IMG/VR virus record: IMGVR_UViG_3300045988_187870
Source: a virus
DNA: 64,000 nucleotides
Reading direction: 5' to 3' (one strand)
The position numbers and the translations under genes were made by a program. Every line of letters starts with the position of its first letter. Positions within the stretch are counted from its first letter, which is position 1. Shown here one piece after another: positions 1 to 64,000 of the stretch. The notes under the pieces were generated by a model that worked only from the letters and a program-made list of their open reading frames with translations, was not told the origin of the DNA and made no database searches.

Positions 1-192
1 ATATGTTTATTGTATTTGGGTATCATGAAAAGCTATTTTCTTGGAACAATCCTACACACTTTATGCTGCGTGTGTGTGATAACTGCGTAGTGTATCGTGA
101 TTGGATGGTTTAATAAACTAGGCGTGTGCAGCCGTTTAGTAGTATGTCATAATAATCTTTAGAAGGAGGCTGTCCCACCCTCCTTCCAACAG

Positions 193-240
193 TAGGATCC
201 TTCAGATCCTTCAACGCTCTATAGTAATGCACAGATATGA
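193..240 (+). repeat. Copy A of a conserved ~45-bp element containing the GGATCcttcaGATCC palindrome; second copy at 1300-1350
   Basis: caacagtaggatccttcagatccttcaa...tagtaatgca versus caacagaaggatccttcagatccatcaa...tagtaatgca. Confidence 0.5.
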
Positions 241-5877: not shown

Positions 5878-6246
5878 AGATACACAAATCTCTGATAGAC
5901 ACAGTCTATGGTCTGTCTTCCACAGAACTTAATGCAATCTCCACCAGAAATAACAATCAGTTTTACAAGCATAGACAAAGTAAAACACATCATAAGCGAA
6001 GACATTATAGAAACTTCTATAAATATGCTGGTGTGTCATCACACCACGACAAACAGGATTACGAAGATTGTAATAAATATATCGTTCATTTTCGGCGACA
6101 AAATCGCAAACCTGATAACAATTTCGGCTATCATGATGAGCATTTTGTTGAAACAGAAAACAACTGGAAAGAAACATGAGTCAGAAAATAATATCTGTGG
6201 CACAAGCCACGCCACATCAACATTTCTGAAGAAAGGAAAGAACAAA

Positions 6247-7104
6247 ATGCTTAACATTGCCAAATCTGCAAAAATCATTCAGAAAGAACTTGATAAGCAA
6301 GCGCTTGAAAACGCAACGTCTGGCTGGATGGAAGAAAACATCACGCAGACTATATACAGTGGCGGCTGTGAAATCAAAATGCCAAAAACAGATGTCAACG
6401 ATTTCGATGCCTGTATTACATACATTTATGAAACGCTCAAACTTGCAAGAGAAAGAAATAAGCGTTTTTGCATCGACAAGCATGACATTGACAAGGAAAA
6501 CATTGCACAAACTATAACCGCTGTCATATCCGAATTTCAGCGCACGCAGGTAAATCCTGAAATCGATGCATACCGCTATTCCAGACTGGCTGCTGCAGCC
6601 GGCATTCGGGAAAACTATATCCCAAATAAAGCAACCATCACAGCCAGACTATTGAACCAGCTCAGCAAGGTTCGTAGTGAGATAAGTGATAAGGACGATA
6701 TTGTTATTGTCATGAGCCGTCATGCTTACGACAAGCTTATATATTCAGATAAAGTTTCGCAAAATATCGAAACATCTCAGTTCAGACAGGGCGAACTCGA
6801 TTTGTATGTAAAGTCCATTGATAATGTTTATATCATTCCTGTGCCGTCTACAAGAATGAAAACCGCATACACATTCAATGATAACGAGGGATTTGCTGCA
6901 ATCGAAAATGCCAAAGAAATCAACTGGATCATCTGTCCCAGAACAACCCCTATTGCAATATCCAAGACGGACAATATTGTAATCACAACACCCGAAACAA
7001 ATCAGTTTGACCCTGATTTATGGGACGTTGATTACAGCAAATATTATGACCTGTTCATACCCGACAACAAGAAAGCTACTATTGCTGTTTCCATTAGAGA
7101 ATAA
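6247..7104 (+). CDS. hypothetical protein (285 aa; the track ORF 5908-7104 is probably over-extended at its 5-prime end)
   Basis: internal ATG with RBS aaaggaaagaacaaa; the upstream 113 codons are low complexity and lack an RBS. Confidence 0.5.
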   Translation: MLNIAKSAKIIQKELDKQALENATSGWMEENITQTIYSGGCEIKMPKTDVNDFDACITYIYETLKLARERNKRFCIDKHDIDKENIAQTITAVISEFQRTQVNPEIDAYRYSRLAAAAGIRENYIPNKATITARLLNQLSKVRSEISDKDDIVIVMSRHAYDKLIYSDKVSQNIETSQFRQGELDLYVKSIDNVYIIPVPSTRMKTAYTFNDNEGFAAIENAKEINWIICPRTTPIAISKTDNIVITTPETNQFDPDLWDVDYSKYYDLFIPDNKKATIAVSIRE

Positions 7105-11916: not shown

Positions 11917-12051
11917 ATGATTATAGTGTATGATATGTTCATATAAGTGTAAAGTCCTTTTACCATATCTCCAACACAGCTGAAATATTATATAAGTATA
12001 CATGTATACTCACAGGGGATATACAGATTACCTTTAGCAGGAGGTTAGATT

Positions 12052-13441: not shown

Positions 13442-13459
13442 CCAAATTTTAATCAAAAG

Positions 13460-13756: not shown

Positions 13757-13781
13757 TTAATTACATTTAACAAGGAAAGGA

Positions 13782-13964: not shown

Positions 13965-14001
13965 TTACCTTGTCCTCTGATTATATCAGAGGACGCATCA
14001 T

Positions 14002-14380: not shown

Positions 14381-14427
14381 ATATATGTAGACAATCTATT
14401 AGCAGTCACACTTGGAGGTGAGTATCT

Positions 14428-50849: not shown

Positions 50850-50862
50850 GGAGGACACATAT

Positions 50863-51084
50863 ATGAATCTTAAGAAGATAGGGCCAGTTGTAGCAATTTT
50901 GGCCGTAGTACTCGTAATCGCAATTGTAGTTATCGCAAACTGGACTAAATGGGCTACTGCTTTAGGCGACTATGCTGGTCAGCAGGTAGGCCTTGATGGG
51001 CTTGGTACTGCTGTTATTGGTGATGCAACAGGTAGAGATGGCGCGCAGGGTAATGGTAATGGCGGAGGCGCACAGGTTCCGTAA
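50863..51084 (+). CDS. small pilin-like protein (73 aa; N-terminal hydrophobic helix, Gly-rich C-terminus)
   Basis: MNLKKIGPVVAILAVVLVIAIVVIANW; RBS taaggaggacacatat; no canonical Flp G/xxxxEY motif. Confidence 0.35.
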   Translation: MNLKKIGPVVAILAVVLVIAIVVIANWTKWATALGDYAGQQVGLDGLGTAVIGDATGRDGAQGNGNGGGAQVP

Positions 51085-51157
51085 TTACTAAATTGACGCT
51101 TATATAGGGGGAGTCCTAGCTCCCTCTAACTTTTGATTAAAGATAAAGGAGAAAAAT

Positions 51158-51793: not shown

Positions 51794-51797
51794 TAGT

Positions 51798-52709: not shown

Positions 52710-52726
52710 TTCATGAGGTTTAGCAG

Positions 52727-54253
52727 ATGTTAAATGTAATTCTAACAAACAAACCAAACAAACGTGACCTCTTAGACAGGTTTATTCGATCAAGAGGAAT
52801 TTCAAATTTTATCATCATCACAGAGGCTGCAGATATTGGGAGTATTCTCAGTGATATTATGATTACTAGCGATTCGACTTTTAATCTCCATATTTTTGAC
52901 TATTACGGAGACCTTTCGATAGTTAATACAATTCGTGATTACAGAGATCAGATTAATCTTCTTCGTGTATACGTAGCATCTATTGAGGATTCACATGCAT
53001 ATCTGACTTTAACAGAAGATGTGTTTATAATGCCGAATGTATTTGATATTCTTATGTACTTTTGGGATTCAGATGCTTGTCGAGCTAAGAATGTTGCTGC
53101 GTTTGACTTGATGCATATTGACTTCTTCAAAGTAAACATTCCTGACTCACTTGGTAGAACAGATCAGTTAGCAATTAATATAAACACGCAGCAGATTCCT
53201 TTGAAGTACAAGACAGCAAGTGGCTCGATTGTAGAAACACAGGGACCACAGCTTGTAGTTTCTTGTAAAGCAAAGTCAAAAGAGATTAAATCAATCTTTG
53301 ATACAAGAAATCAAGAGGAAGTCTATAGTCACCGAGTCAGAGATCTATCTGACCTTCCAACAGACATTGTGGAAGATCCAGTTCCTAAGAAAGAACAGGA
53401 AATTGTCATCTCTAAAGAGCCCAAACCTATCAAAGTCAAAGAACCTAAACCAGTTAAAGTTAAAGAGCCCAAGTCTATTAAGGAAAAACCGATTAAGCAG
53501 GCACAACCGGAGAAAGGAAGCTCAGATAAACATGATAATGGTTTCTCTGCTTTCTTTAAGAAGTTCAAGTTCAAGGAAGATGAACATGTTACAGAACCCT
53601 TAGCAGTTAAGGAAGAACCTGTTGCAACGCCGGAGCCAGAACCAATTCAGGAACAGATACCAATACAAGAGGAGCAGAAGTACACAGAGTCTATACCAAC
53701 TTCACAACCAGAGGAATCAAAGTCAAAGCCAGAACTAAAACCTTTTGTTACTTTCTCTGGTGTGAAGGGTGGTACAGAAGTAGCGACTGGTCGTGCACCT
53801 ACACGCAGATACACACTATCAGAGGTGTATGCATCAATATCGCAGTTTTGCATTGAGAAGAAATATATTTCTGCTGAGGATGGTGTATCTTTACAGAAGG
53901 AAGTTGCTAATAAGCCTTCAAGAGATGCACTGTTTGGTAATCTTGCATTGGAACGTGGTCTGATTACAGAAGAGCAGCTGATAGATGCAGTAACACAGGT
54001 AAACCATGTAGAGATTCTTACATGGGAAAAAATATCTGCAATGGAGCTCGATTTCACATACTTTAACAGTGACAAGTGCAAGGAGTTCAAGTTCTTTAAA
54101 CTTAAAGATGCTCAGCCTAATGATACAGCACAAATAGTTTGTGCTTTCTCTCTATCTAGTATACATCCAGAGGTTAGACGTTTATTCGATAATCCACGAA
54201 TTTTGTATACGCTCGATTCCTACATCACACGTAAGTTAGGAGAAACTTCATGA
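52727..54253 (+). CDS. protein with a KEPKPxKV repeat linker and a C-terminal GspE-N (T2SSE_N/MshEN-like) domain
   Basis: C-terminal LFGNLALERGLITEEQLIDAVTQ resembles the GspE/PilB N-terminal domain; 21-bp tandem repeats at 53415-53498. Confidence 0.4.
   Translation: MLNVILTNKPNKRDLLDRFIRSRGISNFIIITEAADIGSILSDIMITSDSTFNLHIFDYYGDLSIVNTIRDYRDQINLLRVYVASIEDSHAYLTLTEDVFIMPNVFDILMYFWDSDACRAKNVAAFDLMHIDFFKVNIPDSLGRTDQLAININTQQIPLKYKTASGSIVETQGPQLVVSCKAKSKEIKSIFDTRNQEEVYSHRVRDLSDLPTDIVEDPVPKKEQEIVISKEPKPIKVKEPKPVKVKEPKSIKEKPIKQAQPEKGSSDKHDNGFSAFFKKFKFKEDEHVTEPLAVKEEPVATPEPEPIQEQIPIQEEQKYTESIPTSQPEESKSKPELKPFVTFSGVKGGTEVATGRAPTRRYTLSEVYASISQFCIEKKYISAEDGVSLQKEVANKPSRDALFGNLALERGLITEEQLIDAVTQVNHVEILTWEKISAMELDFTYFNSDKCKEFKFFKLKDAQPNDTAQIVCAFSLSSIHPEVRRLFDNPRILYTLDSYITRKLGETS
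53415..53498 (+). repeat. 3.5 copies of a 24-bp in-frame tandem repeat (AAAGAGCCCAAACCTATCAAAGTC) encoding KEPKPIKV
   Basis: read directly from the sequence. Confidence 0.7.
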
Positions 54254-55620
54254 TAGGTGTTGTATTGACAAAACGTCGAGAAGAGTTCTATAAACTTGCA
54301 TCTAAGTATGCATTACAGTTCGAGGAAATATTTGATATCTCTGATACTGAAACTTTATGTTCCTATGAGAAAATTTATACTGATGGTCCTGCTATTCCTG
54401 CAGGGCCATTTTTGGTTACGGATATATCTTCAGTTGATCTTAGAACAATTTTTATAGAATCGCCATTGATAGACGCTGAAGTTTTGTTAAAACAGGCATA
54501 TCTTAGATATACTTTTGAAAAGTTTCAAGATGCTATACGGGTTGAGCCATTATCATTCTCTTGTACCTTTGAGGAGCCTTCTATTGTTGATGAATCTACT
54601 CAAGTTAAGATAAAACCGGTTATACTTGATAAAGTACAAGCAAATCCTGTTATAGATAAACCTGTTTTTGAAAAAGAACCTACAGTTGACTTTCAAGACA
54701 TCTTTAACAGCGGTGAACCTGAACCTGAACCAGTACAAGAATGTGAGCAAGAGTCAACATTCATAAACGAGCCTCCATCATCAAAAGTATATCCTACAGA
54801 CTTGTTTGTACAAAAACCAAAGCAGACGCAGCCTGTCAGAAGAACTTCATTGCAACCTGGATCAATTCGAGTACGTGGATTCACACAAAGAAAAAAGATA
54901 TTCCAGGTTCCTGTTTTCACATTTAACAGTTTAACAGATAGAACTGGCACAACAACTCTCACAGCAGCTTTAGCAGTGGCAATGGCAATCCAGCAACCTT
55001 CTGCAAAGATATTGTACTTGGATTTGGATATATCAAATCCAAATTATCTTTTGGAAATGTGGAATCGTAATCCAGGAACAGATGCTAGTGTTAAAACAAT
55101 TGCAGGTTTAGCAGAGGCTGATTTTGAGCAGAACATTTCTCTGTTATCGGAAACTATTTCTGTTTCACAAGCAGTATTTTCATTAATTACTTGGGGACAG
55201 ACCACTTTCGTTGAAAAGAGAATATTAGCAGCACAGGATTTCAATTTATTCATAAACATTATCTACAATAGCTTTGACCTCATTCTTGTAGATATGGGAA
55301 AGCTCCAGTCAACTCTTGATTATCAGATGAAAATGCTCATGTCAACATCAACAAAGCATTTCATTATTGCAGATGGTTCAACATCTCGTAATGTGAGTAC
55401 ATTCATTCAGTTAGCCAGTCAGTTACCTTATAATTTTGAAGTAATTATAAATAAGAACGTGCCTCAATCAGGATCTTTTGCAATTACACAACAATTAAGA
55501 CAAAATCCTATTGCTACTGTAGGATATTATAGAAATATTGATAGAATTCTCACTGATCAGTTACCTATGCAGGGGACTGCGCTGTTCACTGAATTGTGTG
55601 AGTTAGGAGGTAAACTCTGA
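54250..55620 (+). CDS. TadZ/CpaE-like protein (N-terminal receiver-like domain + ParA-like domain)
   Basis: ATGA overlap; TDRTGTTTLTAALAVAMA region. Confidence 0.35.
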   Translation: MIGVVLTKRREEFYKLASKYALQFEEIFDISDTETLCSYEKIYTDGPAIPAGPFLVTDISSVDLRTIFIESPLIDAEVLLKQAYLRYTFEKFQDAIRVEPLSFSCTFEEPSIVDESTQVKIKPVILDKVQANPVIDKPVFEKEPTVDFQDIFNSGEPEPEPVQECEQESTFINEPPSSKVYPTDLFVQKPKQTQPVRRTSLQPGSIRVRGFTQRKKIFQVPVFTFNSLTDRTGTTTLTAALAVAMAIQQPSAKILYLDLDISNPNYLLEMWNRNPGTDASVKTIAGLAEADFEQNISLLSETISVSQAVFSLITWGQTTFVEKRILAAQDFNLFINIIYNSFDLILVDMGKLQSTLDYQMKMLMSTSTKHFIIADGSTSRNVSTFIQLASQLPYNFEVIINKNVPQSGSFAITQQLRQNPIATVGYYRNIDRILTDQLPMQGTALFTELCELGGKL

Positions 55621-56411
55621 TGAACTTAGAAGAACGCATGCGTGAATCAGCACAGCGAGCAACAGCACCAAGACCAGGAGAAGACTACAGCGCATTGAAA
55701 GACCCTAATATAGTATCTATGCTTCGAAACGCCATTAAAGAATCAGAGCCAGAGGATGCTAAATCGTCAGATATAGATGAGCCTGAAGATATGACGCTTG
55801 ATGATGAGGACGAAGTTTTAGATATGCATGCCATGGCTAACAAAATTGCACCTGCTGTTGGCGTATCAGTAACAGGCAAGACAGAAAGTAGTACGCCTGC
55901 GACAACATCTTTAGTAGAAGATAAAAATAGCTCAATGTTAGATTTGGATGATCTGTCGCTGGATAAAAAGGATGAAGATACAGATGAGCCTCAGAACAAT
56001 AAGTTAAAGTTTATTGTTGCAGGTATAGTTTTTATAATCATCTTGGCTATTGTAATAATTTTTAAGATAAAATCTTCTTCTGAACAGCAAAATTCTTCAA
56101 CACAGTCAACTAGCACAACTCAGCAAATTGAATCCAACATACATAAGTATTCAAATGATACTTTAGCGGTGACAGATAGTCAGACATATCAGGATTCAAT
56201 GACAATCAGCAAGTACATTGAGATTATAGACGATGCTTGTTTATTTGTGTTTGAAGGATACGCAGAAAATGCTAGGGCATTTGTTAAAGCTTATGTAGAT
56301 ATTGATACTTACAATACCTACAAGGTTGGAGCACGTGTACCTATCATATATAACCGAATAACAATCGGTAATAAAGATTATTATATGAAAGTGAGGTTGA
56401 ACATTTCATGA
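55620..56411 (+). CDS. acidic protein with a single TM helix
   Basis: RBS gttaggaggtaaactctg; TM helix FIVAGIVFIIILAIVIIF. Confidence 0.5.
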   Translation: MNLEERMRESAQRATAPRPGEDYSALKDPNIVSMLRNAIKESEPEDAKSSDIDEPEDMTLDDEDEVLDMHAMANKIAPAVGVSVTGKTESSTPATTSLVEDKNSSMLDLDDLSLDKKDEDTDEPQNNKLKFIVAGIVFIIILAIVIIFKIKSSSEQQNSSTQSTSTTQQIESNIHKYSNDTLAVTDSQTYQDSMTISKYIEIIDDACLFVFEGYAENARAFVKAYVDIDTYNTYKVGARVPIIYNRITIGNKDYYMKVRLNIS

Positions 56412-57052
56412 GAACGAAAAAGAAGATGTATGTCTTCAGTTTGTTTGCATGCTTCATGTGTTGGATTGGTTTGTTTAGCACATCTGTTTTAGCAGCAAAT
56501 AACTTAGTGCCTTATGATGATACATCGCAGAGCTCATCAGTAACAGCTGTTACTGCTAGCACACCAGAAGACTCTGTAAAGGAGCCACATGATTATGCTG
56601 GCGAGATTTTCCAGGATGTTAAGTATTCAGAGGATCCAGCTGTTACTGGTGCAGTAAGTTCTGTAGCAAAGGTGCTTAGCTGGATAATTACATTTGTTAT
56701 TGGCGTTGTCCCATATGTTATGGGCATTTTGATGGTTATTGATATTGTTTGTTTACTTATCAAACAGGTCAATGTCCTTTTAGCAGGTTTGCCTATTCAG
56801 TTATACTCTGATACTGTTATAGAAATCAACGGTATTCAGTTCGTGGGAACAGGTGAAGGTAACAAAGGCACAACCAATGTTGAGAAAAAGGACCTTAAGG
56901 GTCAATCAAAGTTTTTGTATTACATAAAATCAAAATTCTTTGATATTCTGATAGCAGTAACATTGTTCTTGCTACTACACACGGGCATTCTCTTCGATGT
57001 GATATTCTGGATTGCAAACAGGATTGTAGGATGGATTGATGGTCTTATATGA
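56408..57052 (+). CDS. secreted/membrane protein (signal peptide + 2 TM)
   Basis: ATGA overlap. Confidence 0.45.
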   Translation: MRTKKKMYVFSLFACFMCWIGLFSTSVLAANNLVPYDDTSQSSSVTAVTASTPEDSVKEPHDYAGEIFQDVKYSEDPAVTGAVSSVAKVLSWIITFVIGVVPYVMGILMVIDIVCLLIKQVNVLLAGLPIQLYSDTVIEINGIQFVGTGEGNKGTTNVEKKDLKGQSKFLYYIKSKFFDILIAVTLFLLLHTGILFDVIFWIANRIVGWIDGLI

Positions 57053-57363
57053 TTAAAGCAATTATACGTATTTTTGCTGCAATTAAATGTTCATTGCAGG
57101 AAAAGAATCGCCAATCAAGACAGTTTCAGCAGAAGCAACGTGAGGTGTATAACGAAAGCCTGATAGAAGTAAAACTGATGCAGCAATTGCAGTATATCGT
57201 AGATGAAATGATAAACGATCCTACTATCGAAACTATTAGAATACGTTTCGCTCAGTCTGCATTGCCTTTTGTTGAAGATGCTTTCGCTCACACTCCTCTG
57301 AGGGTTACAGAATGCGCAGAAGAGACAGAATTTATTATCAGTTGCGACGAGGAATTGTTATAA
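57049..57363 (+). CDS. hypothetical protein (104 aa)
   Basis: ATGA overlap. Confidence 0.4.
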   Translation: MIKAIIRIFAAIKCSLQEKNRQSRQFQQKQREVYNESLIEVKLMQQLQYIVDEMINDPTIETIRIRFAQSALPFVEDAFAHTPLRVTECAEETEFIISCDEELL

Positions 57364-57857
57364 TCCTCGTCATTTTTAGTTGCATAGCCTGCACACCTTT
57401 AGCAGGTTATGCAACAAGCTCTCTGGATACAAAGAATGGATATTCTATTGGCAGAAATGATAACTTAACAAATGCTGTACCACAAACAACATCAAAACCA
57501 GGAGTAATTAATTCAGATGACTCTGAATTGATAGACCCTGTTAAGTCTAAAGAGGCGATAGATACAGAATCATTCAATAATGATTTTATCGATACTGCTA
57601 TTTATATCATTGGAGGTTTAGCAGGTATTATGATGATGCTTCAGATCGCAGCATTTTGCTTTACAAAAGTCTATCCATCAACAAATCGCTTTTTTGAGAA
57701 ATTAAAATTCATAGGTATTGATGGTTACGATAGAGGATTTGTTGTGCCAACAATCAAAATTTTACTTTTGGGAATACTATCATTTTTCTGTATCTCAGGA
57801 CTACTAAAACAAGCCATTGCTTATATCTTAGGCTGGTTTGTAATCACATTTGGATAA
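57312..57857 (+). CDS. membrane protein
   Basis: ORF; TM helices. Confidence 0.35.
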   Translation: MRRRDRIYYQLRRGIVIILVIFSCIACTPLAGYATSSLDTKNGYSIGRNDNLTNAVPQTTSKPGVINSDDSELIDPVKSKEAIDTESFNNDFIDTAIYIIGGLAGIMMMLQIAAFCFTKVYPSTNRFFEKLKFIGIDGYDRGFVVPTIKILLLGILSFFCISGLLKQAIAYILGWFVITFG

Positions 57858-57867
57858 GGAGGTTTAT

Positions 57868-58950
57868 ATGCAAACAAAGATAAATAAATGGATGTGCGTT
57901 GATAGGCAAACGCACATTTTTCGTGCTTTAGTATCATTGCTCATTGTTGCAATGATGTTTCTATCTCAAGCATCTTTAGCAGTGACATCATATGCAGCAA
58001 CATCAGTTAGTTTTGATGATTATGCAACTTTTCTTGCTTACAATCGAGCAAAAAACAGTATAGACCCAAAGTCGGGTACTACAGAGAATAAAGACTTTGC
58101 TTTAGCAGATACAGATAGTGCAGAAGAAACTAAAGATACTGACATCTCCGGTGTGTGGACGCTTATTGATGATGTCGCTAAAGCAAAAGCTGCCGGCAAG
58201 ATTGATTCCGTAAAGCAGCCTGTTCTGACAAAACTTGCAGCAACAGCACAACGTATTGTATCAAGTACAACACAAGCCAAATTCACAGAGCAGGTTAAGG
58301 CGGTTTACGCTGCAGCTGGTGGTACAATAAAAATTCATACTGGCACAGGCGCCTATGAAGCAGGGGAGTCTAACTATGCTTCAAAATTGCGCACTGCAGT
58401 AGGCAACTTCAATGCAGCTCAGGCAAGCAGTGCAGCAACTGATGTTTTTGAGTCTATATATGGCGCAGAAAACTGGCATCCTGATACGGGGCTTGCTACA
58501 GAGGCAATGGCAGTTATCTATTCTGTTGTAAATGTTATCTTTACCGTTGTTGCGCAGATTATTATGTGGTTCTTTATGGCACAATCAGCATTTGATTTAT
58601 TCTATATCTCATTTGAACCTATTAGACCCTTCATTGGTCCAAAGGGTAGCGGAGAGAGTAGAGCTAACAACAATGGCGGCGGGGGATTTTGGGATAAGTT
58701 TTGTATTCCGATCTGCTCTAATGCCGCAGTTGAAGCCGCAAATGGAAGCGGCAAGGGTGGTATGGATGGCGGAGCTAGCACAAACTCCAGTAAAGCTGCT
58801 ATCAACTACATAATTAAACGTGCACCATTACTGATAACAATTGCAATTTACTTTATTCTTTCAGTAATGGGTTACTGGACAAAGGTTATTGGTTGGGTAG
58901 CAGATTTTGTTATCAGAATCTTTAACTTTATTTTATCTATCGGCGGATAA
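57868..58950 (+). CDS. membrane protein with an N-terminal TM/signal, a Gly-rich segment and C-terminal TM helices
   Basis: RBS taaggaggtttat. Confidence 0.5.
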   Translation: MQTKINKWMCVDRQTHIFRALVSLLIVAMMFLSQASLAVTSYAATSVSFDDYATFLAYNRAKNSIDPKSGTTENKDFALADTDSAEETKDTDISGVWTLIDDVAKAKAAGKIDSVKQPVLTKLAATAQRIVSSTTQAKFTEQVKAVYAAAGGTIKIHTGTGAYEAGESNYASKLRTAVGNFNAAQASSAATDVFESIYGAENWHPDTGLATEAMAVIYSVVNVIFTVVAQIIMWFFMAQSAFDLFYISFEPIRPFIGPKGSGESRANNNGGGGFWDKFCIPICSNAAVEAANGSGKGGMDGGASTNSSKAAINYIIKRAPLLITIAIYFILSVMGYWTKVIGWVADFVIRIFNFILSIGG

Positions 58951-58982
58951 TCATGTATGTGTCCGCCATATGGGGGACATAT

Positions 58983-61900
58983 ATGAAAAAAGTCATAGCA
59001 ACAATCATGGCTGCGGCAGTTATGCTGTCGCAGCTTTCTTTACTCGTCAAGGCAACAGATGGTAATCCTTTAGCAGTATCAAATAGAGTGACTGCAGACA
59101 TTAATGAACTTAGACAGCGCGAAGAGGATATCAAAAATCAACGTGCTGCGCAAAAAGCAGCCTCAAGAGCCCTAATTAACTACGGAAAAACTACGGGAAA
59201 GACAAATGATCTCTCGTTTTATATAAATCGTAAAAATCTGACTAAACGCGAATTCGAAGCATTCAAGTGGTCATTTATATTTAGTCAGTTTGCACATCCT
59301 TTAGAAGATTCTTTATTAAATGTTTTTGATCAGGATTTCTTTCAAGAATTGTCTAAGGCTGATCTTGATATTGATTCAGTTAGAACGACGATTTTGAATA
59401 GTGGCTTAGTAGCAGATTCTGATGATATCAAAGCTAGCTCGATGGATACAGATCTTCAGGCAATGATGTTGCAAGATGTGAATTTTAATGAATTAGCTGA
59501 AGTTATAAAGTCTAATTATGCTATATACCCGTTAGTAGACTCAAATGGAACACCTGCAAGCCTGGATTCTTTTATATCAGGGGATCTCGGTCTTTATGAG
59601 CCTTTCTTTATCTATGACACCCATGGAACTGCTGATAGTGTTAATGAACTTAATGCACTTTTATATTCCAAGGATAAACTGACCGACCTGGATAAGAATT
59701 ATGGAGATAAATGGACTCTTACAGGGTTTACAACAGATGATTCTGCAGAACCCTATAAAGTGCCTGTATTATTTTATGACAGTAATACATTTTTAGCTAT
59801 GCAGATGGCAATGACAATCTACATGACAAATAATGATTACAGTTCTCTGACAGAAGCGGTGGCATTTCTTGGTGCGCAAACTTTAGCAGTAGATTCTTAT
59901 GGTAATATTTGCTTACAGAAGCAATCAGGCGACGCTGTTATATTTATCCCCAACTTTTATAATACAGTATTAACATCAGTGTTATGCGAGATAGATGGCG
60001 GTGAGAAGACTAAACAGGCTTTGCGTGAGACAATGGATTTGTTTAATGTTTGGTTTGTTGCATTGTATTCAAAAAACACTAGAACTCGTACAACTATTTA
60101 TCCAGCTGTTTATACAACACATGTAAATGGTAGTACATCAAAAATCGTAAACCCAGATACTGGCGAAATTGAAGAAAAGGCAACAGAAGTCTTAGCAGAC
60201 CATTACGCACAACTAATAGGAGGTACAAGTCACTCATTATCTCGAAAGTTTCTGTTGGTAGAAAACTCAATCATATCTCCAGGAGAACAGCAAACTCAGG
60301 CTGTAGTGGATAGTGCTATAGATAATAAAGATGATGAAACTGCATTAGCATTTTCTCATGCAGCAAAAATGATAGCAGAAAAAACATTGAGTGAGTATAT
60401 AGATTCTTGGTTTCCTGGAAACATGAGTTCACGTCCAAAATCTGACGCATCAAATGTTGGTACTCTCGTTTCACCTTATAACACACATGCTTCAGCATTT
60501 ATGCCATTTACTGCAAATGACTCGAGTAAACCAACATACTTTGAGAATAAGTATCCACTTGCACAAGCACAAGTTGCCTTTAAGGAAAAAGATGTAATAA
60601 GCTCTGATGCAGCAAGTGCAACAAACTTTAGCAGGTTTGCAGCTATACTTGAAAATGCAAAATGGAAGTATATACTCTCTCCGAGAAGAGGAAGCTATAG
60701 TACTCATAGTATACAGAGCTCCATGCATGCAGCATACAACGATAGTTCAAATATGATGGCTATTAATCCAACTGTTTCATTGATGACATCACTTCCAGCA
60801 GAGCAACTCATTCCAGACTTAAGATTTGTTAGTGCAAAGAAGAGCGAGCAATCAACAGGAGCTAGAACAGTAATATTTTTGCCAAAAGAAATACTTGACT
60901 TAGGACAGACCATGTCTGCATATACTCTATCAGATGAGAAAGGAATGTTCTTGTCTCAATATGAGGTTTATTTCTCGGGAGATATAGAAAGATTTCGAGA
61001 GTATATGCTGGGAACATATAATCAAGTTCTAGGTACAGATTCAGGCCGATTCTTGACAGTAGATTATGATAGTGGAGTGCTCAAGGTGAAATCACTAGCG
61101 ACCTTTAACAGAACCTATCTCACTGAAGACACTGAATTTACACTATCTTGGAGCACTAATAAATATACTAGTACAGATTTTTTCGATTATGTTCATTACA
61201 GTATTAAAGATGAGTATAAAAGCGGTCATTACAATGAGGGAGCACGATATGTTTATGAGGTCTTGAAGGAAAAAAAGGACGAAGATGGTAATACATATTA
61301 TGAAAATTATGATCCTCCAAAATACACCGTTAGTAGTGATGAGAAGTCCGGAGACAAGTACAGTTTTATTGCCGCTTATTATTATGATTCTGATATTATT
61401 GATCCGGGCATATCTACTGGTTCATGTAGCGAGATTCCAACACCAGATTACAAGTTGAAAAATGATAGTGCAGACGCTAAAATGAAAGCAGGAGCTCAAG
61501 CCTTATGGGCAGCAGGTGCTGCTATTGCAGGTATGTCAAAAGATGCAGAATATGGTAGTACTGAAGGATTTCAGAAGCTCTTAGCAGATGTGTGTGCATC
61601 ATGTGGCTTTAACACAGACGAATTCTATTACATGCTCGTAAACATCTATAGATTCAATGGAAAAGATAATGGTACATTTGGAATAAACAGTGTTTATTTC
61701 TATGATGAATATACTTGTCTATTGCGTAATGGTGCAACAGCATTTTCTGATATTGATTGTGAGAACTCTGATGACTTTGTGCAAACAACTTATTACTGGG
61801 ATAGATATTATTTAACTAAACAGCAGCTTTCTCAGGATGTTTCAGATTATGTAAACAAGCAGTATGAGTCTATAGATTCTTTAGTAAGTGATTATGAAAA

Positions 61901-64000
61901 TTATCTTAATCAGACATTTCAAACATCACTACAATATAGTTTTTCGCGGTATCTACAGGATTACAAGAGTACAGCAACACTTCCACCATTTGCAAACGAA
62001 TACGCACTGCAGGTTCAATCTTTAGCAGAGTGGAAGACTAAGAATCCTGCAGTATCAAAACTGCTACAAAGCAAACAAGCTTCTCTCGTGTATGAGTATT
62101 TAGCAGACGATACAATAATTCTATATCCATTTGGATGGGATGATTATTATTATGATCTACACTTGTATGCCGGAGCAGGGGATACAATATACCAACATTC
62201 AGCAAGTGGAGAGGCAAATACAGAGCAGATAAATGTAGCTAGAACTAAGACATCTGTTAATTTAATTCAGACACTATTAGCTCTGCAGAAGAATACAGAT
62301 TATCAGCACAATAATCTTAAAACAACATATACTCAGCGCATAGATGAAAATCATGTAACTAGGGAGGAATTGATGGATAAGGCAAATCAGTTCTTTGACA
62401 GTCCAGTCTCAGGGCTAAGCTACATCTTAACAGGATTCCTTTATCAGATTCATGAATCTGTAGCAACTGGAGATTTTGGTAGCATATTCAACATTAGCTA
62501 TTTAACAGAAACTGATGCATATAAGTGGATAATGGATAGATACATTGCATTAGTTACAATAGCTATTGCAATTGTATTATTCCTTAAGCTTATTCAATTC
62601 GCAATGAATAAGAGCAAGGATTTTGCACACATTGGACGTTCTATTTTAGGTATCTTAGCAATGTGTATGGTCCCTGTAGTAGTCTTTAACAGTTTTGTAT
62701 GGGCATTTGATGTCTCGTCAGATTGGGCGATGAAGAGTACATCAGATAAGATACTTCTTGCACAAATAAACAGATACTGTTCAGATGCAAATAATGATGG
62801 TAATGTGACTGCAGAAATTACTGCCTTTAAACAGCAATTTAGCAGTGTGAAGGGTACATATGATTGTCTGCAATTCGAGCAGATGACAAACTACTCACTT
62901 GGCTCCGGTCCAGTATATTCAGTAGTGCCTATTTCGGACATGATTGCAAATCTACAATATTCAACATCATATGACACATGGTACTCTAATAAATCATTTA
63001 TACCAGTCCATCAAGACTTATATAAGGATTCTTATTTCTACTTCTTTTATGACTATATTAAGCAAGAATTCTTAAAGTATTCAGCAGAGCACGATGACGG
63101 TAGTTCGGAAGTAAAACAAGCAGGCGAAAGCTTTGAAACTAATCGCAAAAGCTTAAAAGCAGGCTCTGCTGATGATATCGCAAAGGATATTAATGCAGCA
63201 GAAAATCTGTTCAGAACATCACGCGGCAGTTTCAGACGTATGCTTCTTGACACAGACTTTGTATATAAAAACTCTGTGCATGAAACACAAGAAGCAAGAT
63301 ATGGTGGACCTCATGCAACTGATTTAGCAGGTATGTACATGATTTTCGATGCGTCTGCAGCAGGACAAGTTACTAAGACCCTACAAGACACAGTGTACTT
63401 TAGAGCATATACAGATGCAGATGCAATGAAGGTATCTAATGAAGGAATGATATCTGAAACATGGCTGAATCAGAATGCGATTAGTGATTATGTAGAAAAA
63501 CAGATTTCTCTAGGCAAAGGTATTCGTGGTGACCCTGGAAAAGGTTCATATGCAATCTATACTTCAGGACTTGACCCATATGAAGGAACTTTGAATACAA
63601 ATGCTTATTTAACAGATGCAACAAATACAGCTACAGCACCTATTATAACACCACTCGAACAGGCGCTTATCGATGTTACAGAAAAGACATACAATCAGAC
63701 AATGACAGCTCTTAACTATCTTCCTGGACAGATGCATGATGAAGCAGCAATTGTGCTAATGGCTTATATTGCCACATTTAATCTCAATCAGGCGATGAGT
63801 TATGAACCTCAAGCACCTTTAACACAGTCTGTTACTCTGGATGATGTTGTTTCTACAGCATTCCTAACAGACCTTGACATGATAGGCACAGAGACGAATA
63901 CTCTATATGCTATGATAGCTCAAGGTGATAGTGTAGGTAAGGCAGCAATAGTTGTTATACTTGAAATAATCATTTGCTTATCGTCAATATTCAGAGTACT
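58983..64000 (+). CDS. giant secreted/surface protein (more than 1670 aa; partial, runs off the window) with a signal peptide and internal TM segments
   Basis: RBS ggggga 6 nt before the ATG; no in-frame stop found on manual codon-by-codon reading to the window end; absent from the ORF track because it has no stop. Confidence 0.6.
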   Translation, partial: MKKVIATIMAAAVMLSQLSLLVKATDGNPLAVSNRVTADINELRQREEDIKNQRAAQKAASRALINYGKTTGKTNDLSFYINRKNLTKREFEAFKWSFIFSQFAHPLEDSLLNVFDQDFFQELSKADLDIDSVRTTILNSGLVADSDDIKASSMDTDLQAMMLQDVNFNELAEVIKSNYAIYPLVDSNGTPASLDSFISGDLGLYEPFFIYDTHGTADSVNELNALLYSKDKLTDLDKNYGDKWTLTGFTTDDSAEPYKVPVLFYDSNTFLAMQMAMTIYMTNNDYSSLTEAVAFLGAQTLAVDSYGNICLQKQSGDAVIFIPNFYNTVLTSVLCEIDGGEKTKQALRETMDLFNVWFVALYSKNTRTRTTIYPAVYTTHVNGSTSKIVNPDTGEIEEKATEVLADHYAQLIGGTSHSLSRKFLLVENSIISPGEQQTQAVVDSAIDNKDDETALAFSHAAKMIAEKTLSEYIDSWFPGNMSSRPKSDASNVGTLVSPYNTHASAFMPFTANDSSKPTYFENKYPLAQAQVAFKEKDVISSDAASATNFSRFAAILENAKWKYILSPRRGSYSTHSIQSSMHAAYNDSSNMMAINPTVSLMTSLPAEQLIPDLRFVSAKKSEQSTGARTVIFLPKEILDLGQTMSAYTLSDEKGMFLSQYEVYFSGDIERFREYMLGTYNQVLGTDSGRFLTVDYDSGVLKVKSLATFNRTYLTEDTEFTLSWSTNKYTSTDFFDYVHYSIKDEYKSGHYNEGARYVYEVLKEKKDEDGNTYYENYDPPKYTVSSDEKSGDKYSFIAAYYYDSDIIDPGISTGSCSEIPTPDYKLKNDSADAKMKAGAQALWAAGAAIAGMSKDAEYGSTEGFQKLLADVCASCGFNTDEFYYMLVNIYRFNGKDNGTFGINSVYFYDEYTCLLRNGATAFSDIDCENSDDFVQTTYYWDRYYLTKQQLSQDVSDYVNKQYESIDSLVSDYENYLNQTFQTSLQYSFSRYLQDYKSTATLPPFANEYALQVQSLAEWKTKNPAVSKLLQSKQASLVYEYLADDTIILYPFGWDDYYYDLHLYAGAGDTIYQHSASGEANTEQINVARTKTSVNLIQTLLALQKNTDYQHNNLKTTYTQRIDENHVTREELMDKANQFFDSPVSGLSYILTGFLYQIHESVATGDFGSIFNISYLTETDAYKWIMDRYIALVTIAIAIVLFLKLIQFAMNKSKDFAHIGRSILGILAMCMVPVVVFNSFVWAFDVSSDWAMKSTSDKILLAQINRYCSDANNDGNVTAEITAFKQQFSSVKGTYDCLQFEQMTNYSLGSGPVYSVVPISDMIANLQYSTSYDTWYSNKSFIPVHQDLYKDSYFYFFYDYIKQEFLKYSAEHDDGSSEVKQAGESFETNRKSLKAGSADDIAKDINAAENLFRTSRGSFRRMLLDTDFVYKNSVHETQEARYGGPHATDLAGMYMIFDASAAGQVTKTLQDTVYFRAYTDADAMKVSNEGMISETWLNQNAISDYVEKQISLGKGIRGDPGKGSYAIYTSGLDPYEGTLNTNAYLTDATNTATAPIITPLEQALIDVTEKTYNQTMTALNYLPGQMHDEAAIVLMAYIATFNLNQAMSYEPQAPLTQSVTLDDVVSTAFLTDLDMIGTETNTLYAMIAQGDSVGKAAIVVILEIIICLSSIFRV

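What the first reader, a model, noticed from the sequence alone, without database searches (positions are those of the whole stretch)
1..64000. Extreme, fully strand-polarised over-representation of the motif (C)TTTAGCAG
The octamer TTTAGCAG, usually preceded by C, occurs roughly every 400-800 bp along the + strand. I count about 85 exact copies plus about 10 CTTAGCAG variants, against only 2 copies of the complement CTGCTAAA (23588, 44467). For an 8-mer at this base composition, about 2-4 copies per strand are expected, so this is an enrichment of more than 20-fold with a 40:1 strand bias.

The motif is not a peptide repeat. It appears as TTA-GCA-G (Leu-Ala, for example at 8626, 9046, 19783), as TTT-AGC-AG (Phe-Ser-Arg, for example at 13088) and in intergenic or RBS regions (12034 and 30114 as CTTTAGCAGGAGGT; also 27886, 32980, 40441, 40838). 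It is never in the frame where its TAG would be a stop.

Density is lower in the first 8 kb and within the variable surface-protein genes. Selection therefore acts at the DNA or transcript level and is orientation specific. The behaviour resembles Chi-like (AddAB) or KOPS/SRS-like translocase-orienting signals, or uptake/packaging/priming signals, but the density is 5-20 times higher than known examples. That is why it may be an undescribed system, such as a recognition site for an element-encoded protein or a self-marking motif.
Basis: seen in the sequence. Interest (0 to 1): 0.92.

Follow-up and report, generated by a model that had tools for sequence, protein, structure and literature searches.

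The report
One-stranded guide word peppering a giant element
A large (~300 kb) mobile element from human-gut bacteria carries the 8-letter word TTTAGCAG about every 780 bases on one DNA strand only, and its relatives carry slightly different versions of the word, so it is a real, evolving recognition signal, most likely one that tells a DNA-end-processing enzyme to stop degrading.

Summary
TTTAGCAG occurs 81 times on the + strand and 2 on the - strand, against about 4.8 expected for both strands together. It is the most frequent of 31,647 octamers. Synonymous-codon shuffles leave about 7 of the 66 coding copies. Non-coding DNA holds 14 copies against 0.3 expected.

The window is positions 94,438-158,437 of a 319,751-bp gut metagenome contig. 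This is an uncharacterised large element with every gene on one strand.

Syntenic relatives carry dialects of the word: TTTAGCAG, TCTAGCAG, TCTAGC and TTTAGCCAG, sharing the core T-Y-T-A-G-C. At six homologous positions TTTAGCAG aligns with TCTAGCAG. Copies are 5-12 times more conserved than random octamers, but most turn over. There is no hairpin context and no peptide or tandem repeat.

My best reading (confidence 0.4) is a Chi-like word for an AddAB-type helicase-nuclease. It meets the criteria described for Chi-rich phages P1, LLS and MD8, and its 3' part AGCAG is one transition from Bacillus Chi (AGCGG).

Rivals are a translocase guide, a primase start site (the core embeds TTA/CTA) and a transcript-level signal.

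I found no description of this word as a signal.

The parts
1..64000 (+). Domain carrying 81 co-oriented copies of (C)TTTAGCAG, a mean of 1 per 777 bp. 1-based starts: 1146, 1452, 1969, 3309, 5082, 7452, 8627, 9047, 10164, 10718, 11060, 12033, 13089, 16540, 17925, 18353, 19464, 19784, 20319, 21332, 22821, 24911, 26730, 27514, 27772, 27885, 28264, 28727, 29248, 29812, 30116, 30995, 32462, 32978, 33680, 34189, 34675, 35911, 36593, 36782, 37037, 37112, 37466, 38330, 38852, 39607, 40056, 40442, 40840, 41488, 41787, 42329, 43048, 43233, 43586, 44793, 46371, 48205, 48942, 49161, 50198, 50411, 51202, 51818, 51920, 52719, 54969, 55107, 56488, 56779, 57398, 57617, 57975, 58101, 59069, 59882, 60627, 62021, 62099, 62838, 63323.
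   Evidence: The domain extends outside the window: from about 4 kb upstream (L038:5711) to at least 5.4 kb downstream (L043).
12033..12040 (+). Non-coding copy, CTTTAGCAGGAGGT. Its 3' AG runs into a Shine-Dalgarno sequence.
   Evidence: It is one of 3 copies followed by GAG.
30116..30123 (+). Copy in the TTT-AGC-AG frame, 15 nt before the stop of ORF 29030-30130. It overlaps the ribosome-binding site of the next gene (CTTTAGCAGGAGGT).
27885..27892 (+). Copy at the 3' end of ORF 27305-27889, overlapping its stop codon; intergenic by the script's criterion because it is not wholly inside a gene.
32978..32985 (+). Intergenic copy.
40442..40449 (+). Intergenic copy.
40840..40847 (+). Intergenic copy.
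23591..23598 (-). One of the two reverse-oriented copies (chance level).
44463..44470 (-). Second reverse-oriented copy (chance level).
13097..16539 (+). Longest motif-free stretch in the window (3.45 kb). It contains the tmRNA gene and three small ORFs.
   Evidence: Counts per gene are otherwise Poisson-like: 5 long genes have no copy against 5.5 expected.
14002..14380 (+). Context: tmRNA gene carried by the element.
   Evidence: RF00023, 123.7 bits.
5908..7104 (+). Context: HK97-type major head protein gene.
   Evidence: phrog_422, 4e-63.
17437..18231 (+). Context: sigma-70 family factor.
36336..37568 (+). Context: UG27-class reverse transcriptase. This gene holds 5 motif copies.
45466..58950 (+). 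Context: Tad/Flp-like pilus block (CpaF ATPase at 47387-48919), used as the syntenic anchor for comparing relatives.
58953..64000 (+). Context: 5' part of a 1883-aa ORF that runs off the window. It holds 7 motif copies.

Best explanation
The word is a distributed, strand-specific DNA recognition sequence of the Chi type.

Proposed mechanism. A helicase-nuclease of the AddAB/RecBCD class enters at a double-strand end: a collapsed replication fork, a rolling-circle tail, or a linear entry or packaging end. It travels leftwards in window coordinates and degrades DNA. It meets 5'-TTTAGCAG-3' from its 3' side on the 3'-ended (+) strand. There it stops degrading and hands the end to RecA. The host's enzyme is the most likely reader.

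Why the density is high. A dense carpet of co-oriented copies means that any break costs at most a few hundred bases. It would also limit the supply of degradation fragments for CRISPR spacer acquisition.

Dialects. The variant words in related elements would reflect different specificities of the enzymes in their hosts, or in the elements themselves.

What is shown: real, one-strand, nucleic-acid-level enrichment; selection on density with turnover of individual sites; concerted change of the word between relatives; no structural or positional context.

For: 1. The word meets the criteria that separate direct selection for Chi on mobile elements from codon by-products. It is the most frequent octamer, as Chi is in P1 and MD8 (bioRxiv 10.1101/2021.07.08.451572; PMC12315714). 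It is at least as dense in non-coding as in coding DNA: 1 per 426 bp against 1 per 873 bp, with 14 fully non-coding copies against 0.30 expected. It is essentially all on one strand, 81:2, as in MD8 (32:0).
2. Near-cognate one-transition words are also polar (TTTAACAG 22/2, TTTAGTAG 18/1). MD8 similarly has an abundant 7-of-8 relative of its Chi.
3. The signal is position independent, with no conserved flanks and no hairpin context. Counts per gene are Poisson-like. Density is similar in all relatives (23-46 copies per 21.5 kb) although only 19-28% of sites are positionally conserved. This is what is expected of a distributed 'any copy will do' signal.
4. Polarity: the word is on the sense strand, which is G-rich. 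Cumulative GC skew rises monotonically across the window. This is the orientation Chi has on leading strands.
5. The element looks Firmicutes-associated: the capsid's nearest relatives are from Streptococcus, Clostridioides and Listeria phages, and the sigma factor is SigF/G/K-like. Firmicutes use AddAB, whose known Chi words are AGCGG (B. subtilis) and GAAGCGG (S. aureus), that is, a core plus a 5' extension (bioRxiv 10.1101/2021.07.08.451572). The 3' part of the present word, AGCAG, is one transition from AGCGG, and TTT would be a 5' extension.
6. A core plus a variable extension across the dialects (T-Y-TAGC with AG, CAG or nothing) parallels how known Chi words differ between taxa (PMC3384302; PMC12315714).
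Against: 1. No test of the defining property was possible. The host is unknown, so I could not ask whether its chromosome is enriched and skewed for the word.
2. No AddAB/RecBCD-like gene was seen in the 79 kb read.
3. The density is 2-3 times that of the most Chi-rich phages (about 400 copies per element if it is uniform). The copies are spread evenly, not clustered near an end as in P1, LLS and MD8. The marginal benefit of each extra Chi at this density should be very small.
4. The word matches no known Chi exactly.
5. A complete scan of IMG/VR for three co-oriented copies found only local repeat clusters. If this were the Chi of a common gut host, some of that host's phages might have shown it. 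The test is weak, because detection probability per phage is low.
6. The 5.7-kb co-oriented block upstream has no copy.
7. The dialect differs between fairly close relatives: 74% CpaF identity gives TCTAGCAG, while the 64% and 68% relatives keep TTTAGCAG. On the host-enzyme version this needs repeated host switches, or else an element-borne reader.
8. Sites differ between strains at 1% divergence at the neutral rate (3 of 240 positions against 2.4 expected), so per-site selection is weak.
Confidence: 0.4

Rival explanations
1. Guide word for a directional double-strand DNA translocase, like KOPS/SRS for FtsK/SpoIIIE or the 8-bp TraB recognition sequences of Streptomyces plasmids. An FtsK/HerA-type motor, from the host or the element, loads at the word and is oriented by it. 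It would then pump the 300-kb element one way during segregation, forespore packaging, conjugative transfer or capsid filling.
For: The word is a fully polar 6-9-mer with skew 0.98-1.0, and KOPS/SRS are defined by skew above about 0.9 (PMC3384302). This matches the dialects and the concerted T-to-C change. A TraG/DUF87 (FtsK-HerA superfamily) ATPase and ParA-like genes lie just downstream of the window. The even spacing fits a guidance role.
Against: The density is 3-25 times higher than any KOPS/SRS (1 per 2.1 to 1 per 22 kb), and that paper states frequency is less critical than skew for KOPS activity. No gamma-domain-bearing FtsK was identified. No switch of polarity, as at a dif-like site, occurs in the 79 kb read. 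The word is not G-rich like most KOPS.
Confidence: 0.15
2. Preferred start site for primer synthesis on the strand that must be copied discontinuously. That strand is the lagging-strand template of a unidirectionally replicating element, or the transferred single strand during conjugation. A primase (host DnaG with its helicase, or one encoded by the element) initiates opposite the middle T of the embedded YTA. The 3' flank GC(AG) would act as an extended 'cryptic' recognition context.
For: The invariant core T-Y-T-A-G-C embeds TTA (window, L046, L048, L252, L254) or CTA (L047, L049). These are exactly the two template trinucleotides on which Bacilli-class DnaG initiates, starting opposite the middle T (PMC2978363). 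For the C. difficile primase a pyrimidine 5' of its preferred trinucleotide d(CCC) gave the best priming (PMC5204125). Here C or T precedes the word in 80% of window copies. The + strand is the lagging-strand template if forks move with transcription. Spacing of 0.5-0.8 kb is on the scale of Okazaki fragments and is more even than random, with no pair closer than 75 bp. Initiation trinucleotides skewed toward the lagging-strand template are reported for C. difficile (PMC5204125).
Against: Known bacterial and phage primases read three bases, and TTA/CTA already occur every few dozen bases in this DNA, so an 8-9-nt word is unnecessary for host DnaG. No primase gene was recognised in the 79 kb read. 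The strongly conserved part lies 3' of YTA, while the copied 5' side is weakly conserved. The YTA match has only two observed states and could be coincidence.
Confidence: 0.12
3. A signal read during or after transcription. All genes are on the + strand, so the word is in every transcript (CUUUAGCAG) and on the non-template DNA strand. It could recruit or retain an elongation or antitermination factor (ops/RfaH-like, or sigma-dependent pausing using the element's own sigma factor). Or it could bind an element-encoded RNA-binding protein that marks its own transcripts.
For: The orientation is identical to that of all 85 ORFs, and no minus-strand gene exists in the 79 kb read, so this cannot be separated from replication polarity. 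The element encodes a sigma factor and a PUA/ASCH-like RNA-binding protein. Some non-coding copies sit just upstream of start codons and overlap ribosome-binding sites.
Against: There is no fixed distance to starts or stops, and copies are spread through gene bodies in a Poisson-like way. There is no structural context. Known ops, put or nut signals occur once per operon, not every 0.8 kb. The co-oriented, presumably co-transcribed 5.7-kb upstream block lacks the word entirely.
Confidence: 0.08
4. Target of an asymmetric DNA modification or restriction system (type III, type ISP, type IIL or BREX-like). These systems methylate one strand only and cleave only when sites are head to head, so a one-orientation genome is immune.
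For: TAGCAG resembles EcoP15I's CAGCAG, and TTAGCC in L254 fits the lactococcal type ISP site TnAGCC. Both comparisons are from memory and were not checked here. The word is asymmetric and 6-9 bp long, and dialects differing by one base are typical of specificity-domain evolution.
Against: Orientation immunity predicts avoidance of the reverse orientation. It does not predict 35-fold enrichment of the forward one. The reverse orientation is at chance level, not depleted (2 observed, about 2.4 expected), and those two copies would create head-to-head pairs. No methyltransferase or helicase-nuclease gene was seen.
Confidence: 0.04
5. Uptake- or transfer-type signal that accumulates by molecular drive, like the DUS/USS of Neisseria and Haemophilus. 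Here it would be read by the element's Tad-like pilus or secretion machinery.
For: The density (about 1 per kb), the tens-fold enrichment, placement in permissive reading frames, and 'dialects' with homologous sites converted between relatives all resemble DUS/USS (DUS dialects: PMC7371117; densities from memory). The element encodes a complete Tad/Flp-like system.
Against: DUS/USS work in either orientation and occur on both strands, whereas this word is 98-100% on one strand. Nothing links Tad systems of this kind to sequence-specific DNA binding.
Confidence: 0.03
6. Compositional, codon-usage or repeat artefact.
For: About 88% of coding copies (51 of 58) are Leu(TTA)-Ala(GCA), and both are favoured codons.
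Against: Dinucleotide, synonymous-codon and codon-order shuffles all fail to reproduce the counts. Non-coding DNA is 47-fold enriched. L049 uses two frames 26:19. Relatives with similar composition use a different word. Eighty-one control loci show nothing similar. Spacing is not periodic.
Confidence: 0.01

Closest known systems
Chi accumulation on mobile elements: phage P1 (50 Chi), Rec-less lambdoid phages such as LLS (23 Chi, 1 per 1.86 kb, 20 in the active orientation) and Pseudomonas phage MD8 (32 'Chi', all on one strand, the most frequent octamer)
   Same: A short asymmetric word is the most frequent octamer of a mobile element. Nearly all copies are on one strand. It is found in coding and non-coding DNA alike, near-cognate words are also abundant, and the word differs between host groups (PMC12315714; bioRxiv 10.1101/2021.07.08.451572).
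   Different: The word itself is new. The density is 2-3 times higher. The distribution is uniform over at least 73 kb, not clustered near an end. The genome is about 300 kb, not 40-90 kb. Dialects are seen within one element family.
KOPS / SRS guide words for FtsK / SpoIIIE
   Same: These are polar 7-8-mers with skew of about 0.8-1.0.
   Different: KOPS/SRS density is 1 per 2-22 kb, against 1 per 0.5-0.8 kb here. They are mostly G-rich. Their polarity converges on dif, and no convergence point was seen here. They are a chromosomal feature, not an element feature.
DNA uptake sequences (DUS/USS) and their dialects
   Same: The density is about 1 per kb, the enrichment is very high, the reading frames used are permissive, and there are lineage-specific dialects with converted homologous sites (PMC7371117 for dialects; densities from memory).
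   Different: DUS/USS are orientation independent, whereas this word is strictly one-stranded.
Initiation trinucleotides of Firmicutes DnaG primase (CTA, TTA)
   Same: The variable base of the core makes the embedded trinucleotide TTA or CTA. The word lies on the presumed lagging-strand template and usually follows a pyrimidine (PMC2978363; PMC5204125).
   Different: Primases read 3 bases, whereas this signal is 6-9 bases long and its best-conserved part lies 3' of the trinucleotide.
Hodor conjugative megaplasmids of the human gut (element type, not the motif)
   Same: Both are extrachromosomal elements of more than 300 kb from human-gut Bacillota. Both have secretion and partition genes and large surface proteins, carry phage-derived genes, have few annotated genes, and were previously filed among 'huge phages' (PMC12934698).
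   Different: Hodors have 44.6-47.1% GC, against 37-38% here. No homology test was possible. That paper reports no strand or motif analysis.

Membership tests
Chi (crossover hotspot instigator) sites | Short asymmetric word, over-represented and strongly skewed to one strand of the replicon | tested here: met
   81:2; about 34-fold over dinucleotide expectation; the most frequent octamer.
Chi (crossover hotspot instigator) sites | On mobile elements under direct selection: present in non-coding DNA at a density similar to or higher than in coding DNA, and not explained by codon usage (the P1 criteria) | tested here: met
   14 non-coding copies against 0.30 expected. Coding copies: 66 against about 7 after synonymous shuffling.
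Chi (crossover hotspot instigator) sites | Co-oriented with replication (on the leading strand) | tested here: inconclusive
   This is inferred only from positive GC skew and gene orientation. No origin or terminus lies in the sequence available.
Chi (crossover hotspot instigator) sites | Same word over-represented and skewed on the host chromosome | not tested
   The host was not identified.
Chi (crossover hotspot instigator) sites | Recognised by RecBCD/AddAB, with attenuation of nuclease activity and RecA loading | not testable with these tools
   This is a biochemical and genetic property.
Chi (crossover hotspot instigator) sites | Identity with a known Chi word | tested here: not met
   AGCAG in the word differs from B. 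subtilis AGCGG by one transition. There is no exact match to AGCGG, GAAGCGG, GCGCGTG or GCTGGTGG (sequences from bioRxiv 10.1101/2021.07.08.451572).
KOPS / SRS (FtsK/SpoIIIE orienting sequences) | Skew of 0.9 or more toward one strand | tested here: met
   0.98 in the window and 0.96-1.0 in relatives.
KOPS / SRS (FtsK/SpoIIIE orienting sequences) | Polarity converging on a dif/terminus site | tested here: inconclusive
   There is no inversion in the 79 kb read.
KOPS / SRS (FtsK/SpoIIIE orienting sequences) | Reader with an FtsK gamma (winged-helix) domain | not tested
   Only a TraG/DUF87 ATPase, cut by the end of the locus, was seen downstream.
DNA uptake sequences (DUS/USS) | High density (about 1 per kb) with lineage dialects | tested here: met
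DNA uptake sequences (DUS/USS) | Works and occurs in both orientations | tested here: not met
   98-100% of copies are on one strand.
Primase initiation sites (Firmicutes DnaG) | Template trinucleotide CTA or TTA | tested here: met
   The core T-Y-T-A-G-C always embeds TTA or CTA (PMC2978363).
Primase initiation sites (Firmicutes DnaG) | Specificity limited to about 3 nt plus a weak 5' context | tested here: not met
   6-9 nt are conserved, mostly 3' of the trinucleotide.
Type III / ISP restriction-site orientation bias (as for EcoP15I sites in T7) | Absence or depletion of the reverse orientation, without a need for forward enrichment | tested here: not met
   The reverse orientation is at chance level (2 against about 2.4), and the forward orientation is enriched about 34-fold.
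Tandem or peptide repeat | Periodic spacing, a conserved longer unit, or a single reading frame | tested here: not met
   Flanks are not conserved, spacings are not periodic, and copies occur in two frames plus non-coding DNA. By contrast, the IMG/VR false positives are periodic.

The most novel reading that the evidence does not exclude
The word is a private 'self' signal. It is read by a protein encoded by the element family itself: a helicase-nuclease, a directional translocase or a primase lying outside the 79 kb seen. That protein's specificity has switched between close relatives (TTTAGCAG, TCTAGCAG, TCTAGC, TTTAGCCAG), dragging hundreds of sites with it. This would be a mobile-element-borne, co-evolving polar word system that distinguishes the element's DNA from host and competitor DNA. 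It would operate at the highest density known to me for a polar word.
Probability: 0.3. Interest if true: 0.85.

Novelty: new variant of a known kind. Interest (0 to 1): 0.68.

Why it matters
If the Chi-like reading is right, this element family gives candidate Chi words for uncultured gut Firmicutes, where none is known. The candidates are T-Y-TAGC with its extensions. It would be the most extreme case I know of a mobile element saturating itself with a host repair signal. That bears on how large elements survive DNA-end degradation and evade CRISPR spacer acquisition.

Either way the dialect series is useful. It has homologous sites converted in concert, so it is a natural experiment for how a dispersed recognition word and its reader co-evolve. 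The word is also a practical marker for recognising, binning and orienting fragments of this unnamed family of ~300-kb elements in metagenomes, and for spotting recently acquired blocks that lack it.

Tried and rejected
1. Codon or composition artefact: rejected by three kinds of shuffle and by the non-coding enrichment.

2. Peptide or tandem repeat: rejected.

3. Hairpin-loop or single-strand structural signal: the pairing probability of the word and the local folding energy equal those of controls.

4. tmRNA-tag connection: from memory, the E. coli ssrA tag DNA contains CTTTAGCAG. The element's own tmRNA encodes ...VALAA with CTC-GCA-GCT and lacks the word. I treat this as coincidence.

5. 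Link to known elements: there are no megablast matches in the phage or plasmid collections. At the protein level CpaF finds only distant rhizobial plasmids. Hodor megaplasmids differ in GC, and pMMCAT is a Bacteroidales plasmid present in PLSDB.

6. Finding the host or more of the replicon:
- GTDB scans with CpaF and with an alignment found nothing close. The alignment scans of the genome and metagenome collections were swamped by a Walker-A pattern.

7. Other carriers in IMG/VR:
- Capsid and CpaF searches found no close relative.
It returned chance hits and tandem protein repeats, none related to the family by tblastx.
- The complete three-copy scan returned only local repeat clusters.

8. 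A correlation between GC content and dialect, suggested after four relatives, was broken by L252 (41% GC, TTTAGCAG).

9. 'Foreign genes lack the word' inside the window: not supported. Zero-copy genes occur at the Poisson rate, and density shows no correlation with GC or GC3. Only the 5.7-kb upstream block is significantly empty.

10. Purifying selection between strains at 1% divergence: not detectable.

11. Search for a reader among window proteins with Pfam, PHROGs, NCBIfam, PADLOC and PDB sequences: nothing relevant.

12. Literature search for the word itself: about 1,100 papers contain the string; the top-ranked ones listed are incidental (DNA barcodes, primers) and none describes it as a signal.

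Full report
OBSERVATION

TTTAGCAG occurs 81 times on the + strand of the window and twice on the - strand (23591 and 44463). Dinucleotide-preserving shuffles give 4.76 +- 2.26 for both strands together, and never more than 16. It is the most frequent of the 31,647 distinct octamers present. C precedes it in 54 of 81 copies, and no other flanking position within 20 nt carries information. The only tolerated variants are transitions at two positions: TTTAACAG (22 on +, 2 on -) and TTTAGTAG (18 and 1). The - strand count is what chance predicts, so the asymmetry is one-strand enrichment of about 34-fold. It is not avoidance on the other strand.

Every credible ORF lies on the + strand: 85 ORFs covering 90% of the window. 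GC skew is positive throughout.

NOT A CODING OR COMPOSITIONAL BY-PRODUCT

- About 88% of coding copies (51 of 58 in the first gene set) lie in the frame xxT-TTA-GCA-Gxx (Leu-Ala), 7 lie in TTT-AGC-AG, and none lies in the frame where TAG would be a stop.
- Permuting synonymous codons within each gene leaves only about 7 of the 66 coding copies (z about 24). Permuting codon order leaves about 1.5.
- The Leu-Ala dipeptide is itself inflated (173 against 114 expected). TTA-GCA accounts for 81 of these 173, against about 29 expected from codon usage. The word has therefore shaped protein sequences.
- Non-coding DNA is denser than coding DNA (1 per 426 bp against 1 per 873 bp). It holds 14 fully non-coding copies where a Markov model of the non-coding sequence expects 0.30.
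- Spacing is not periodic and is slightly more even than random (CV 0.78 against 0.98, p about 0.012; no pair is closer than 75 bp).
- Counts per gene are Poisson-like: five genes of 900 bp or more have no copy, against 5.5 expected. Density shows no relation to GC or GC3.
- The word has no preferred single-strand structural context.
- Eighty-one unrelated loci of similar size, fetched in passing, show no word with more than 11 polar copies.

WHAT THE WINDOW IS

The window is identical to positions 94,438-158,437 of ENA contig ERZ27296959:k119_20781, which is 319,751 bp long. Its proteins recur in hundreds of assemblies, including human-gut and HMP samples. Several of the listed carrier contigs fall at 300-320 kb (300,076; 303,476; 310,444; 319,751), but contigs of 0.4-0.64, 1.34, 3.67 and 3.82 Mb also occur. 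The likely picture is a ~300-kb element that may also exist integrated, or be mis-joined in some assemblies.

Recognisable genes in the window:
- an HK97-type major head protein (5908-7104; phrog_422, 4e-63) and an HNH endonuclease;
- a tmRNA (14002-14380);
- a sigma-70 family factor;
- a PARG-like protein, a flotillin, a DHH/DHHA1 protein and a GNAT acetyltransferase;
- a UG27-class reverse transcriptase, with a second paralogue just upstream of the window;
- a complete Tad/Flp-like pilus block around a CpaF ATPase (47387-48919).

A 1883-aa ORF starts at 58953 and runs off the window. It is followed downstream by a ParA-like ATPase and a TraG/DUF87 ATPase. Most other proteins match nothing.

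The capsid's nearest relatives are from Streptococcus, Clostridioides and Listeria phages, at 36% identity or less. This, together with the sporulation-type sigma similarities, points to a Bacillota host.

There is no megablast match in the phage or plasmid collections. No close relative is present in IMG/VR, and no GTDB species representative carries it. The recently described 'Hodor' gut megaplasmids are the same sort of object, but they have 44.6-47.1% GC, against 37-38% here. That paper contains no strand or motif analysis.

EXTENT OF THE SIGNAL

Downstream, the dense run continues for at least 5.4 kb beyond the window. Upstream, it begins about 4 kb before the window. Before that lies a 5.7-kb block that is co-oriented but has no copy at all (P about 7e-4 at the local rate). 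The block encodes a dCMP deaminase, two MatE transporters and a nucleoside deoxyribosyltransferase.

These genes have the same prevalence as the element's genes, and variants in the same 90%-identity clusters occur on the same very long contigs. They also occur at 90% amino-acid identity or more on the 238-kb contig of a relative whose Tad region is only 64% identical in DNA. The block therefore belongs to the element but looks recently exchanged. This suggests the word accumulates with residence time.

THE KEY RESULT: DIALECTS

CpaF homologues form a graded series from 84% to 46% identity, mostly on contigs of 120-260 kb. I fetched about 21.5 kb around seven of them. All are syntenic with the window's Tad block, and all have every gene on one strand. 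An unbiased k-mer analysis gave these polar words, as + / - counts:

- window (38% GC): TTTAGCAG, 32/1
- L046 (84% CpaF identity): TTTAGCAG, 28/1
- L252 (68%, 41% GC): TTTAGCAG, 23/0
- L048 (64%, 34% GC): TTTAGCAG, 29/0
- L047 (74%, 42% GC): TCTAGCAG, 41/1, with only 4 TTTAGCAG
- L049 (51%, 43% GC): TCTAGC followed by any base, 46/2
- L254 (47%, 40% GC): TTTAGCCAG (TTTAGCC 26/0, TTAGCCAG 18/0)
- L253 (49%): only a weak TTTAGCC, 8/0

The shared core is T-Y-T-A-G-C, with a variable 3' extension. In every relative, synonymous shuffling removes most copies.

Alignments of the window against the relatives show three things:
- Conservation: 9 of 32 window copies sit in the same column in L046 (28%, against 5% for random octamers), and 6 of 32 in L048 (19% against 1.5%).
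- Turnover: most copies are not positionally conserved, yet density is maintained.
- Concerted change: six window TTTAGCAG columns align exactly with TCTAGCAG in L047.

The sites have therefore followed a change in the specificity of whatever reads them. Distant capsid relatives (small phages) have no such word. Between strains 1% apart, sites change at the neutral rate and always by single transitions. This is as expected if each copy contributes little.

WHAT IT IS NOT, AND SEARCHES THAT FAILED

A scan of IMG/VR for two co-oriented copies returned chance pairs and tandem protein-repeat arrays, with periodic spacings and longer repeated units. None is related to this family. A complete scan for three copies returned only local clusters. 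I therefore found no independent population of phages carrying a distributed TTTAGCAG signal.

The host could not be identified, and the rest of the 320-kb contig could not be read. Two decisive tests were therefore impossible: counting the word on the host chromosome, and looking for polarity flips. No helicase-nuclease, FtsK-like reader, primase or methyltransferase was recognisable in the 79 kb available.

MOST LIKELY MECHANISM (confidence 0.4)

I think this is a Chi-type word. The documented cases closest to this pattern that I found are mobile elements that accumulate the Chi of their host:
- Lambdoid phages that lack their own recombination module carry up to 25 Chi in the active orientation. 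LLS has 23, or 1 per 1.86 kb, with 20 in the active orientation.
- Pseudomonas phage MD8 has 32 'Chi', all on one strand. It is the most frequent octamer, and a 7-of-8 relative is also abundant (PMC12315714).

The present word meets each of these criteria.

Its polarity is the one Chi has on leading strands: it lies on the sense, G-rich strand. It would be read from its 3' side by an enzyme entering a double-strand end on the right and moving left. That is the geometry of a collapsed rightward fork or a rolling-circle tail.

The hosts are probably Bacillota, which use AddAB. The known AddAB words are AGCGG (Bacillus) and GAAGCGG (Staphylococcus). The 3' part of the present word, AGCAG, is one transition away from AGCGG. 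The 'core plus extension' pattern of the dialects resembles how Chi words differ among taxa.

A plausible reason for such a high density is that every extra copy shortens the tract lost at a break. From my own knowledge of work on CRISPR adaptation (not checked here), it would also shorten the tract available as a source of spacers.

Against this reading:
- The defining biochemical and host-genome tests are missing.
- The density is 2-3 times that of the precedents.
- The distribution is uniform, not clustered near an end.
- The word matches no known Chi exactly.
- The dialect differs between fairly close relatives.

RIVALS

(a) A guide word for a directional translocase (0.15). The skew, the word length and the documented co-evolution of KOPS with FtsK fit (PMC3384302). 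An FtsK/HerA-superfamily ATPase lies just downstream. But the density is 3-25 times too high, and no convergence point or gamma domain was seen.

(b) A primase start site (0.12). The variable base makes the embedded trinucleotide TTA or CTA, which are exactly the two on which Bacilli-class DnaG initiates (PMC2978363). The spacing is on the scale of Okazaki fragments and is over-regular. But primases read three bases, and the conserved part lies on the side that is not copied.

(c) A transcription- or transcript-level signal (0.08). This cannot be excluded, because no minus-strand gene exists in the sequence available. But there is no positional or structural pattern, and the co-oriented upstream block lacks the word.

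(d) An asymmetric restriction-modification target (0.04). This predicts depletion of the reverse orientation. It does not predict enrichment of the forward one.

(e) A DUS/USS-like uptake signal (0.03). The density and the dialects fit, but the strict polarity does not.

(f) An artefact (0.01).

I put this at about 0.3. It would make the word a private self-marking system.

NOVELTY AND VERDICT

The feature is real, very strong and functional. I found no description of the word as a signal: the string occurs in about 1,100 papers, and the top-ranked ones are incidental sequence data. I also found no description of its dialects, or of this element family as such.

In kind, it belongs with the known polar guide words (Chi, KOPS) and most resembles Chi saturation of mobile elements. 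It differs in four respects: the sequence, the density (the highest I know of for a polar word), the uniform distribution over a ~300-kb element, and the within-family dialect switches with concerted site conversion. I therefore rate it a new variant of a known kind, with interest 0.68. There is a substantial chance (about 0.3) that it is something more novel, namely a co-evolving word-reader pair borne by the element.

Noticed in passing
window 14002-14380 (+): A tmRNA gene sits inside the element (Rfam RF00023, 123.7 bits), but ARAGORN does not call it. Its tag reading frame ends ...DRPVALAA. It lies in the longest motif-free gap of the window.
   Followed up: partly
window 36336-37568 (+) and L038:8208-9416 (just upstream of the window): There are two paralogous UG27-class (DRT-type) reverse transcriptases (PADLOC 4.6e-92 and 1.3e-86). 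The upstream one is followed by a ~148-aa ORF, and the same RT-plus-small-ORF pair recurs in relatives L048 and L252. Their function here is unknown.
   Followed up: partly
window 3339-7104 (+): An HK97-type major head protein gene (phrog_422, 4e-63, with an extra ~114-aa N-terminal part) lies near an HNH endonuclease gene. No terminase or portal is recognisable nearby. It may be a capsid remnant, a captured gene, or a very divergent packaging module.
   Followed up: partly
L038:1-5700 (window -9728 to about -4029): A co-oriented block (dCMP deaminase, two MatE transporters, nucleoside deoxyribosyltransferase; GC 40-43%) has zero motif copies (P about 7e-4). It is 90% or more identical in protein to the copy on an otherwise much more diverged relative, so it looks like a recently exchanged cassette.
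   Followed up: partly
window, whole length: ATTATGA (38/3) and TATTATGA (18/2) are the next most polar words after the main family. They probably reflect start-codon context (..ATT-ATG-A..).
   Followed up: no
window 45466-64000 and L043:11086-21083: A complete Tad/Flp-like pilus gene block is followed by a 1883-aa ORF with no Pfam match, a ParA-like AAA_31 ATPase and a TraG/DUF87 ATPase. The order is conserved in all seven relatives examined.
   Followed up: partly
L253 (49% CpaF relative, 261-kb contig): This relative has only a weak polar word (TTTAGCC 8/0; CTTTAAC 11/0). The signal may be decaying there or in transition between dialects.
   Followed up: no
L044 position ~21050 against L043: Within the window's own strain group, one site is polymorphic between TTTAGCAG and TCTAGCAG, the dialect of relative L047.
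   Followed up: no
L080 (Polyangiaceae MAG, 14.9 kb): TGCCGCAG occurs 11 times on one strand and 0 on the other. It may be a polar word of that genome.
   Followed up: no
L159 / L229 (IMG/VR 3300045988_031432 and a second contig): Six TTTAGCAG copies lie within 2.3 kb, antisense, in two adjacent genes of an unrelated ~60-kb gut phage. This is a local cluster, not a distributed signal, and its cause was not examined.
   Followed up: partly
carrier contigs: The same genes occur on contigs of 300-320 kb but also on contigs of 0.42-0.64 Mb, 1.34 Mb and 3.67-3.82 Mb. Whether these are integrated copies, concatemers or misassemblies is unresolved.
   Followed up: no
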